From the human T2T-CHM13v2.0 reference genome, Homo sapiens, in assembly GCF_009914755.1 (NCBI RefSeq), contig NC_060927.1: 64,000 bases of DNA; one strand, 5' to 3'. Below, piece after piece: positions 42,880 to 46,053 of this stretch. The number at the start of each line of letters is the position of its first letter. Within the stretch, counting starts at the first letter, position 1. A program made the position numbers and the translations under genes. A model generated the notes under the pieces. It made no database searches. It was not told where the DNA came from and was given only the letters and a program-made list of their open reading frames with translations.

Positions 42880-43008
42880 CTATTATACCAGAAACCAAAT
42901 AAGCAATAAAATCCAAATAAGATCATGCCAAAAGGATACAAGAGTCAACCTGAAGAGGCTCCTATTGGCTCAGTATGAGACCATTTGCATATTAGTAAGT
43001 GTAACTAC

Positions 43009-44462
43009 CAAAACTAATAAAACAAAAGAACTGCCAGACTGCCCGAAGAAACCTACAAAGGGGCCTCTTATAGTGACTTCAGTTTTATGGGATAATTGTA
43101 ATGCTTCCAAAGCTGTTGTGCTCCAAAGTCTAGCCACGGGTATTGCTATTGATTGGGCTCCAAAAGGGCATTATTCGCAAGATTGCTCCGGCAAAAATAC
43201 CTCATGCTCAGAGTTTATTTATTTATTAGATTATATGGAGAATGGATGGCAGTCTTACAGGCTGAGACAATGGGTGTCTCCTTACCCATTCAAATGGATG
43301 GACGGATGCAGGCATTGCTCCTCCTAGACCAAAAATGATTCATCCCTTTGTTACCCCAGAACATCCTGAACTATGGAAATTAGCTGCAGCCTTGACAGGA
43401 ATAAGGATATGGAACACTACCTATCAACTCCTTCGTACTAATACCAAAACACCCACATTCAACATCACCTTCATATCTGAACGGGTGATACCCATCAGCA
43501 GCTGTGTCAAACCCCCTTACATGCTGTTGGTTGGAAATATAATTATTATTCCTAATACACAAACTATACAATGTGATAACTGTAAGCTGTTCACGTGCAT
43601 TGATACTACTTTTAATCCCACTACAAGTATTCTCTTAGTTAGGGCTGGAGAGGGGGTATGGATACCAGTTTCTTTACATCGTCCATGGGAGTCTTCCCCC
43701 TCTATTCACACAGTCAATGAAGTTCTTAAAGGTATCCTCAAAAGAACAAAGAGATTTATTTTTACTCTTAATGCAGTCCTTGCAGGACTAATTGCGGTTA
43801 CTGCAACAGCGGCAACTGCTGGAGTTGCCATCCACAATTCTGTTCAAACTGCTCACTATGTTGAAGCATGGCAAAAAAACTCCTCCAGACTTTGGAATTC
43901 TCAGGCTCAAATTGTTCAAAAATTAGCTAATCAAATTAATGATCTCCGCCAAAGTGTAACCTGGCTGGGAGATAAAGTTATGAACTTGGAACACTGTATG
44001 CAATTATAGTGTGATTGGAATACTTCTGATTATTGCATAACGCCTTATGCTTATAATCAAGATCAACATAGCTGGGAAAAGGTCTCAAGACATTTAAAAA
44101 CCTGTGATGATAACATAACGTTGGATATTTCACAACTTAAAGAGCAATTCTTTGAGACTTCACAAGCCCATTTATCCACTGTTCCTGGCTCAGATATTTT
44201 TCAAGGCATAACTAAACAATTATCTGATTTTAATCCCTTCAAATGGCTCAAACCCTTCGGAGGATCATTGTTGTTACTGGCATTATTAATATTGGTATGC
44301 TTATGTAGTCTCCTTTTAGTCTGCAGATGCCTCCAAGGAGTCCGAAACCAAGTCCGAAGTCAACGACAAGCAATGATGGCGATGGCGATCCTAGTTAATA
44401 AAAAGGGGGGAGATGTGGGCTGCAAGCCACCCAGGTGCCGAGGCAAGAGACCGAGGACATGA
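43009..44462 (+). pseudogene. HERV-K-class env pseudogene (C-terminal SU plus TM)
   Basis: HPELWKL, furin site RTKR, fusion peptide [43 protein letters not shown]; in-frame TAG at 44007-44009 then [11 protein letters not shown] anchor; frameshift near 43300. Confidence 0.93.
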
Positions 44463-45417
44463 GCTGTTCCAGTATAATAAAATATAAAACAAGAATAGTT
44501 ATACCAGATATAGATCTTAGATATGATTATATATGAATATAATTAATCATTAGTTTGTGGCAATTACTCTTTATTCCAATATTATAATAATCCTCGCTCT
44601 ATAATCATAACCTAGGAAAAACCAGGCCATACAGAGATAGGAGCTGAGGGGACATAGTGAGGAGTGACCAGAAGACAAGAGTGCGAGCCTTCTGTTATGC
44701 CCAGACAGGGCCACCAGAAGGGCTCCTTGGTCTAGCGGTGACGCCAGTGTCTGGGAAGATGCCCGTTGCCAGGCGGACCGAGGTCTAGCGGTAGCGTAAG
44801 TGTCAAGGGAAAACACCTGCTACTTAGCAGACCGGGAAAGGGAGTCTCCCTTTCCCCGGGGGAGTTTAGAAAAGACTCTGCTCCTCCACCTCTTGTGGAG
44901 GGCCTGACATCAGTCAGGCTCGCCCACAGTTATCCAGAGGCCTAACCGTCTCCCTGTGATGCTGTGCTTCAGTGGTCACGCTCCTAGTCCGCCTTCATGT
45001 TCCATCCTGTTCACCTGGCTCTGCCTTCTAGATAGCAGTAGCAAATTAGTGAAAGTACTAAAAGTCTCTGATATGCATAAATAACGGCGTAAGCTGTCTT
45101 TCTCTTTGTCTCCTCTCTCTCTCTGCCTCAGCTGCCAGGCAGGGAAGGGCCCCCTGTCCAGTGGACACGTGACCCACGTGACCTTACCTATCGTTGGAGA
45201 TCACTCACACTCTTTACCCTGCCCCTTTTGCTTTGTATCCAATAAATAGCGCAGCCTGGCATTCGGGGCCACTACCGGTCTCTGCGCATTGGTGGTAGTG
45301 GTCTCCCGGGCCCAGCTGTCTTTTCTTTTATCTCTTTGTCTTGTGTCTTTATTTCTACACTCTGTCATCTCCGCACACACGGACAGACCCACCGACCCTG
45401 TGGGGCTGGTCCCTGCA
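44414..45417 (+). mobile_element. LTR13 (3' LTR)
   Basis: TGTGGGC.GCAAGCCACCCAGGTGCCGAGGCAAGAGACCGAGG start, AATAAA at 45241, ends ggggctggtccctgCA; 1004 bp. Confidence 0.88.
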
Positions 45418-46053
45418 AGTAAGAGTAACTACAATGGATTAGAATATAACATATCTTTTTCATCATAGGTTCAATATGATACTAAAACAAAGAAACTGAA
45501 ACAAAACCAAATAACAAAAATAAAACCCTCACTGATCACCTTTAGAGAATATCTGATTGGGAATTAACTTGAAAAATTATAATATAGAGGAAAAGAAGCA
45601 TCATTTATCCTATCTTTCTTATGTGAACTGTACCTCAGGGTTGACGAGAAGTACCTCTTTATAGGGGTATTCTAGTTACTAAGTGAAAAAGGAATGATAG
45701 AGTATTAACATTGGGCAACATTTAGGGAAACAATGATCTAGGCAATGGTCATCAATGGCTGCTAACACGACAGAAGAGGAAACTAGACATTACATACTTC
45801 TTAAGAGATATACACAATGGCACTTTTAAGTATTCAGGTAAAAAAATATCACTTGAATCTGATATTGATCAAACTTCTAGATCCGACCATCAATTTTTAG
45901 GAAATACAGTGGACAGAGGACCACATTAAATGACACTATGGGGAGGGGAATTATGAAAATCTGAATTGAGAAAATTCTACAGGACAAATGACCTAGTGTG
46001 ATAAACAAAGAAATTGGGATGGGGGAGTAGAGAGAAATAGAGTGAGGGCAAAC

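What the first reader, a model, noticed from the sequence alone, without database searches (positions are those of the whole stretch)
42994..45432. Headless HERV-K13 element: starts mid-env, ends in a complete LTR, flanked by a 15-bp duplication
Seen: agtaagtgtaactac (42994-43008) and agtaagagtaactac (45418-45432) flank the element. The right end is a full LTR with U5 and terminal CA and no poly(A) tail. The left end is inside env. The host L1 continues across the insertion. Established: betaretroviral TSDs are about 6 bp, and L1-mobilised ERV RNAs stop at R with a poly(A) tail. Inference: this is neither an L1 retrocopy nor a simple later deletion, which would not leave a 15-bp duplication. 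It fits a broken cDNA integrated by its single good end.
Basis: partly seen in the sequence, partly recalled or inferred. Interest (0 to 1): 0.72.

Follow-up and report, generated by a model that had tools for sequence, protein, structure and literature searches.

The report
Headless HERV-K provirus, overlong site duplication
An old, dead retrovirus remnant in the human genome has lost its front three quarters and is flanked by a 15-base host duplication instead of the usual 5-6, likely because one end was joined by the viral enzyme and the other was patched by host DNA repair, a rare accident already reported for related viruses.

Summary
Confirmed: a 2.4-kb HML-4 (HERVK13/LTR13) remnant, env fragment plus a complete 3' LTR ending in CA, no poly(A), lies between two copies of a host 15-mer (1 mismatch). 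29 of 29 related LTRs have 5-6-bp duplications. The host repeat is continuous and carries the 15-mer once. New details: (1) the last 5 bases of the left copy are also env sequence, a microhomology (chance 0.0015), so the left joint is homology-directed repair; (2) the single mismatch makes the left copy read '6-bp duplication + first three LTR bases'. Best reading (0.55): integrase joined the U5 end, and host repair joined the other end inside env. Rival (0.3): both ends joined normally, then templated deletion. L1 retrocopy and plain deletion are unlikely. The anatomy is known: HML-2 6p25.2 and 21q21.1 are truncated proviruses with long duplications, and one-ended integration was shown in cell culture. 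This locus was not found in print. Primate orthologues were not available. New member of a known kind; low interest.

The parts
42830..42993 (+). host dispersed repeat, left part (old L1-like element; family name recalled)
   Evidence: collinear with the right part in 9 of 16 paralogues
42994..43008 (+). left copy of the duplicated host 15-mer; also readable as a 6-bp duplication (42994-42999) + 3 nt equal to the LTR start (43000-43002) + 1 nt + env
43004..43008 (+). 5-nt microhomology shared by host target and env at the aberrant junction
   Evidence: 8 of 10 readable HML-4 paralogues carry these 5 nt just before the collinear env sequence; chance 0.0015
43009..44399 (+). 5'-truncated, broken HML-4 env (frame break near 43300, in-frame stop at 44007)
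   Evidence: 93-94% identical to the chr16, chr19 and chr7 copies; Pfam PF13804, PF00517
44400..44413 (+). polypurine tract
   Evidence: purine run directly before the LTR start
44414..45417 (+). complete 3' LTR (LTR13 type), TG...CA, AATAAA at 45241
45418..45432 (+). right copy of the host 15-mer, joined directly to the terminal CA
   Evidence: its position-7 base (A) is the one found in 8 of 9 readable host paralogues
45433..45960 (+). host dispersed repeat, right part
   Evidence: 39 dispersed genomic matches at 65-92% identity

Best explanation
This is a dead, 5'-truncated HML-4 provirus that likely arose by one-ended integration: integrase likely joined the U5 end (CA) to the host, and host repair likely joined the other end. 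Inferred steps: the free host 3' end was extended about 15 nt along the intact strand, which duplicated the target. It then switched to viral DNA inside env through the shared 5 nt, and about 7.8 kb of the head was lost. The viral DNA may have been incomplete or trimmed at that step. The one mismatch is then a later point mutation. Shown directly: exact CA end, host origin of the duplicated bases, microhomology, absence of the head.
For: Exact terminal CA abuts the right copy, as in family LTRs. Family duplication is 5-6 bp in 29 of 29 LTR copies (19 exact 6, 6 exact 5, 4 with one mismatch) and in 2 of 2 sister proviruses, so 15 is aberrant. The duplicated bases are single-copy host sequence. 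5-nt microhomology, chance 0.0015. No head remnant or second LTR in the window, and no upstream pol-env match at this locus. At 2.4% private substitution, one mismatch in 30 bases is expected 36% of the time. Varadarajan 2016 (PMC5041404): one normal end, the other often truncated, host DNA most often duplicated. HML-2 precedents.
Against: The mismatch is at position 7 of the left copy and is T, the first LTR base, with the next two bases also matching the LTR start. That specific change has a per-site rate of about 0.007 (5 of 691), so the data fit the templated-deletion rival some tens of times better; only a guessed lower prior keeps that rival second. Laboratory duplications are usually hundreds to thousands of bp. 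Headless HML-4 copies without a duplication exist (2 of the 13 other loci), so head loss alone is not rare. Orthologues were not seen.
Confidence: 0.55

Rival explanations
1. Normal two-ended integration with a 6-bp duplication, then templated deletion of the head (during gap repair or later in the germ line). A resected 3' end ending in the 6-mer plus three LTR bases would pair 8 of 9 with the right junction or the empty allele, copy 6 more host bases, and rejoin env through the 5-nt microhomology.
For: It explains every base of the left junction with no mutation: 6-mer (family-typical length) + LTR start (3 nt match; 28 of 29 LTRs begin this way) + host bases + microhomology. The host family has A at position 7 in 8 of 9 readable paralogues, so the left T is derived. 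No change in 30 sites has probability 0.49.
Against: It needs two template switches and a breakpoint at the LTR border. I found no documented ERV case (listing; not read in depth). The coincidence was noticed after the fact.
Confidence: 0.3
2. Integrase joined both ends of an already deleted DNA, using a minimal or cryptic left end (3 LTR bases, a 4-nt inverted U5 end, or an internal env site that reads CA on the minus strand). The true duplication is then 6 bp and the other 9 matching bases are chance.
For: The four bases after the 6-mer are the reverse complement of the last four LTR bases in 24 of 29 family copies. 4 paralogues match the left copy at 8 of its last 9 bases. Shin 2013 lists truncated HML-2 elements with a 23-bp LTR piece at one end (PMC3625200).
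Against: 8 of 9 further matches to the right flank stay unexplained (about 1e-4 by simple arithmetic). This element's own LTR end gives only a 2-nt inverted match. The two closest relatives differ at that env position.
Confidence: 0.07
3. L1-mediated retrocopy (target-primed reverse transcription) of a read-through HML-4 RNA, 5'-truncated and tailless.
For: 15 bp is within the 5-15 bp range of HERV-W retrocopies (PMC5016936). The left edge reads TT/AG, loosely like TT/AAAA. 5' truncation with microhomology is typical of L1 (recalled).
Against: U5 is complete and there is no poly(A), and both are defining features. Ending exactly at the CA would be chance. The bases after a 5' LTR do not match the target, so priming is unexplained.
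Confidence: 0.05
4. Plain microhomology-mediated deletion from the LTR start to env in a normal provirus, plus one later substitution.
For: Three bases are shared by the LTR start and the env site in 4 paralogues. Head losses occur in this family.
Against: It needs a chance 5-nt match to the flank (0.0015) and a specific transversion (0.0025 per site).
Confidence: 0.03

Closest known systems
HERV-K(HML-2) 6p25.2 and 21q21.1: truncated proviruses with long duplications (Kahyo 2017, PMC5488345; Macfarlane 2015, PMC4422153)
   Same: One intact LTR end, other end truncated, flanked by an overlong host duplication (111 and 450 bp); 8 of 451 HML-2 sites exceed 10 bp; Pan2Ap has 15-18 bp repeats
   Different: HML-4 rather than HML-2; 5' rather than 3' truncation; short (15 bp) duplication; a defined 5-nt microhomology and a possible 3-nt LTR remnant
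Aberrant one-ended integration of ASLV and HIV-1 (Varadarajan 2016, PMC5041404)
   Same: One normal integrase junction, other end often truncated and joined by host enzymes, host DNA duplicated
   Different: Induced by drugs or mutants in cell culture; duplications usually hundreds to thousands of bp; here a fixed germ-line fossil with a mechanism that is only inferred
L1-processed HERV-W pseudogenes (Grandi 2016, PMC5016936)
   Same: 5-15 bp duplication, possible 5' truncation
   Different: They end at R with a poly(A) tail; this keeps U5 to the terminal CA and has no tail
Non-classical HERV-K insertions and truncated elements with 23-bp LTR pieces (Shin 2013, PMC3625200)
   Same: Truncated HERV-K with junction microhomology; K127 is listed as 23 bp + 2.1 kb + full LTR
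   Different: Non-classical insertions lack both ends and have target deletions, not duplications; here at most 3-4 nt could be an LTR piece

Membership tests
HERV-K(HML-4) / HERVK13 / LTR13 | Clusters by sequence with catalogued HML-4 proviruses | tested here: met
   env is sister to the chr16 and chr19 copies (100/99 support). Both chromosomes and places correspond to rows classed HML4 in Vargiu 2016 supplement 1; the chr16 LTR divergence is 2.3 there and 2.2% here. Coordinates were matched across assemblies by eye.
HERV-K(HML-4) / HERVK13 / LTR13 | Match to the Dfam/Repbase LTR13 and HERVK13-int models | not testable with these tools
   No repeat library held; the LTR13 label rests on the paralogues' labels
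Normal integrase-made provirus | Terminal CA joined exactly to host at the U5 end | tested here: met
Normal integrase-made provirus | Two LTRs and a 5-6 bp duplication | tested here: not met
   One LTR only; 15-bp duplication, though a 6-bp + 3 LTR-base reading exists
Aberrant one-ended integrant | One normal end, other end truncated | tested here: met
Aberrant one-ended integrant | Abnormal duplication of single-copy host DNA at the aberrant end | tested here: met
Aberrant one-ended integrant | Structure formed at integration (no longer allele ever existed) | not testable with these tools
   No non-human primate genomes or human haplotypes held (one search states no relatives)
L1-processed ERV pseudogene | 3' LTR ends at R, lacks U5 | tested here: not met
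   The full 1004-nt LTR aligns to family LTRs to the last base
L1-processed ERV pseudogene | Poly(A) tail | tested here: not met
L1-processed ERV pseudogene | TT/AAAA site and 5-15 bp duplication | tested here: inconclusive
   Length fits; the site reads TT/AGTA

The most novel reading that the evidence does not exclude
The locus records a normally integrated provirus whose 7.8-kb head was cut out by repair templated on its own right junction or on the empty allele, leaving three LTR bases and turning a 6-bp duplication into a 15-bp one. Some 'long target-site duplications' at truncated ERVs would then be post-integration repair scars, not integrase failures.
Probability: 0.3. Interest if true: 0.5.

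Novelty: new member of a known kind. Interest (0 to 1): 0.27.

Why it matters
It adds an HML-4 case to a short list of ERVs whose junctions record failed or repaired integration in the germ line. The junction is unusually readable: one base in ape orthologues could separate one-ended integration from templated deletion, which bears on how long ERV duplications are interpreted. No function is suggested: env is truncated and broken, and no RefSeq element overlaps it.

Tried and rejected
The 15-mer as wholly viral: the best match in the paralogue stretches held (13 loci, both strands; the middle gag-pro-pol part was not examined) was 12 of 15 at unrelated places, and a pol site matching 8 of the last 9 bases has a different upstream context. 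Head displaced nearby: no remnant in the 64-kb window, and no pol-env match at this locus among 44 genome matches (40 of 294 candidates scored). Second cases with a duplication: the headless chr7 (L004) and chr19 (L014) copies show no long duplication of the right flank within the 1.5 kb held upstream. Junction as the best homology site in the virus: not so; 4-7 sites per 3.9-kb stretch share the 5-mer. Orthologues: none held. Oh 2006 (PMC1317513) and Varadarajan 2013 (PMC3767498) are not held and are known only through citing papers. Searches for this locus in print gave 0 papers ('HML-4' + '3q26.2'; 'HML4' + 'RPL22L1'), and 0 of 12 HML4 rows in Vargiu 2016 are on chr3. Repeat annotation tracks probably list it as fragments, and subscription papers and unread supplements may mention it. 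Hughes and Coffin 2002 (ERV element resembling a DNA transposon) was seen only as a reference title.

Full report
Observation. The two 15-mers lie where stated and differ only at position 7. Between them are 1.4 kb of HERV-K env (Pfam PF13804 and PF00517), a polypurine tract and a 1004-nt LTR at 44414-45417 that begins TG and ends CA. The AATAAA at 45241 is followed by about 170 more LTR bases, then directly by the right 15-mer, with no A-tail. The env is truncated and broken, with a frame break near 43300 and a stop at 44007.

Family and age. The genome search gave 13 other loci at 77-93% identity. The window's env is sister to full-length copies on chr16 and chr19 (support 100/99, end branch 0.028). 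These correspond by place to rows classed HML4 (HERVK13, LTR13) in Vargiu 2016, supplement 1 (PMC4724089, table rows seen); none of its 12 HML4 rows is on chr3. The sisters are about 10.3 kb long (from the coordinates), so about 7.8 kb is missing here. Their LTR pairs differ by 2.2 and 2.6%, and the nearest LTR to the window's is 5.1% away. With a recalled rate of 1-2e-9 per site per year this suggests roughly 12-28 million years, a rough estimate.

Is 15 bp abnormal? Yes. Of 29 other LTR copies examined (30 of 40 matches were cut out, one being the window; 40 of 609 candidates scored), 19 have an exact 6-bp duplication, 6 an exact 5-bp one, 4 a 5- or 6-bp one with one mismatch, and none a longer one. 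The chr16 and chr19 proviruses have 6 and 5 bp. The duplicated bases are host: the flanks belong to one old dispersed repeat, collinear across the site in 9 of 16 paralogues, which hold the equivalent stretch once. The label L1 is recalled.

Left junction. Env collinearity runs back to 43004: the last five bases of the left copy are also env in 8 of 10 readable paralogues (12 examined). Random junctions show 5 or more shared bases 0.15% of the time. The joint was therefore likely made by homology-directed repair. No part of the head is in the window or matched at this locus.

The mismatch. Host paralogues have A at position 7 in 8 of 9 readable cases, as in the right copy, so the left T is derived. 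With it the left copy reads as 6 host bases, then three bases identical to the LTR start (28 of 29 family LTRs begin so), one base, then env. One mismatch somewhere in the pair is expected (36%), but this exact change has a rate of about 0.007. A model in which a normal junction (6-mer plus three LTR bases) paired 8 of 9 with the right junction or the empty allele, copied six bases and rejoined env needs no mutation. The data favour it by a factor of some tens. I judge its prior to be lower by a similar or larger factor, which is a guess, and I noticed the pattern after the fact.

Mechanism. Best reading (0.55, inferred): integrase joined the U5 end; the free host end was extended 15 bases and switched onto env at the shared five bases. 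This matches Varadarajan 2016 (PMC5041404; abstract, background and passages read): one normal end, the other often truncated, host DNA most often duplicated, though usually over longer stretches. Rivals: templated deletion of a normal provirus (0.3); integrase use of a minimal left end with chance similarity (0.07); L1 retrocopy (0.05), which fails two defining features given in Grandi 2016 (PMC5016936, passages) although the duplication length fits and the site reads TT/AG; plain deletion (0.03). Against special status: 2 of the 13 other loci (chr7, chr19) are also headless, without a long duplication in the 1.5 kb held upstream.

What is known. Kahyo 2017 (PMC5488345; parts 1-3 of 4 read, supplements not) found 8 of 451 HML-2 sites with duplications over 10 bp, among them the truncated 6p25.2 provirus (one LTR, 111 bp) and 21q21.1 (450 bp), and noted that some may be pseudo-duplications from later rearrangement. 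Macfarlane 2015 (PMC4422153, passages) reports 15-18 bp repeats at Pan2Ap and ascribes such cases to aberrant integration. Shin 2013 (PMC3625200, passages) lists truncated HML-2 elements and microhomology-joined non-classical insertions. Passages of PMC3228705, PMC10742618 and PMC6407205 added only background. This locus was not found by two searches.

Verdict. Real, likely an aberrant-junction HML-4 fossil, a new member of a known kind, with no sign of function. Its value is the one-base test in ape orthologues, which could not be run here. Interest 0.27.

Noticed in passing
L004:1180-1500 (G000:C7 near 101,216,600): A second headless HML-4 copy starts at almost the same env position (about 40 nt downstream of the window's junction). 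It is preceded by what looks by eye like a forward Alu fused to a reversed Alu piece; no duplication of its right flank in the 1.5 kb held upstream.
   Followed up: partly
L014 (G000:C19:12,117,540-12,117,853): A third headless copy with only about 320 nt of env plus LTR. The right flank looks like Alu and the left flank does not, so host sequence seems to have been lost with the head.
   Followed up: partly
L032, L038, L043, L045, L046, L057 flanks: About 6 of 29 LTR copies sit, by eye, inside Alu-like sequence.
   Followed up: no
L010-L012 (G000:C17:44.17-44.19 Mb): Three divergent HML-4 env copies (78-89% identical to the window's) lie within about 15 kb on one strand.
   Followed up: no
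window 44414-45417 and RPL22L1 3' end at 49212: The LTR points towards the 3' end of RPL22L1 on the opposite strand, 3.8 kb away; antisense transcription was not tested.
   Followed up: no
window 41604-41897 and 42518-42812: Two Alu-like elements (84% alike over 180 nt); the second interrupts the host repeat left of the insertion, flanked by a short repeated motif seen by eye.
   Followed up: no
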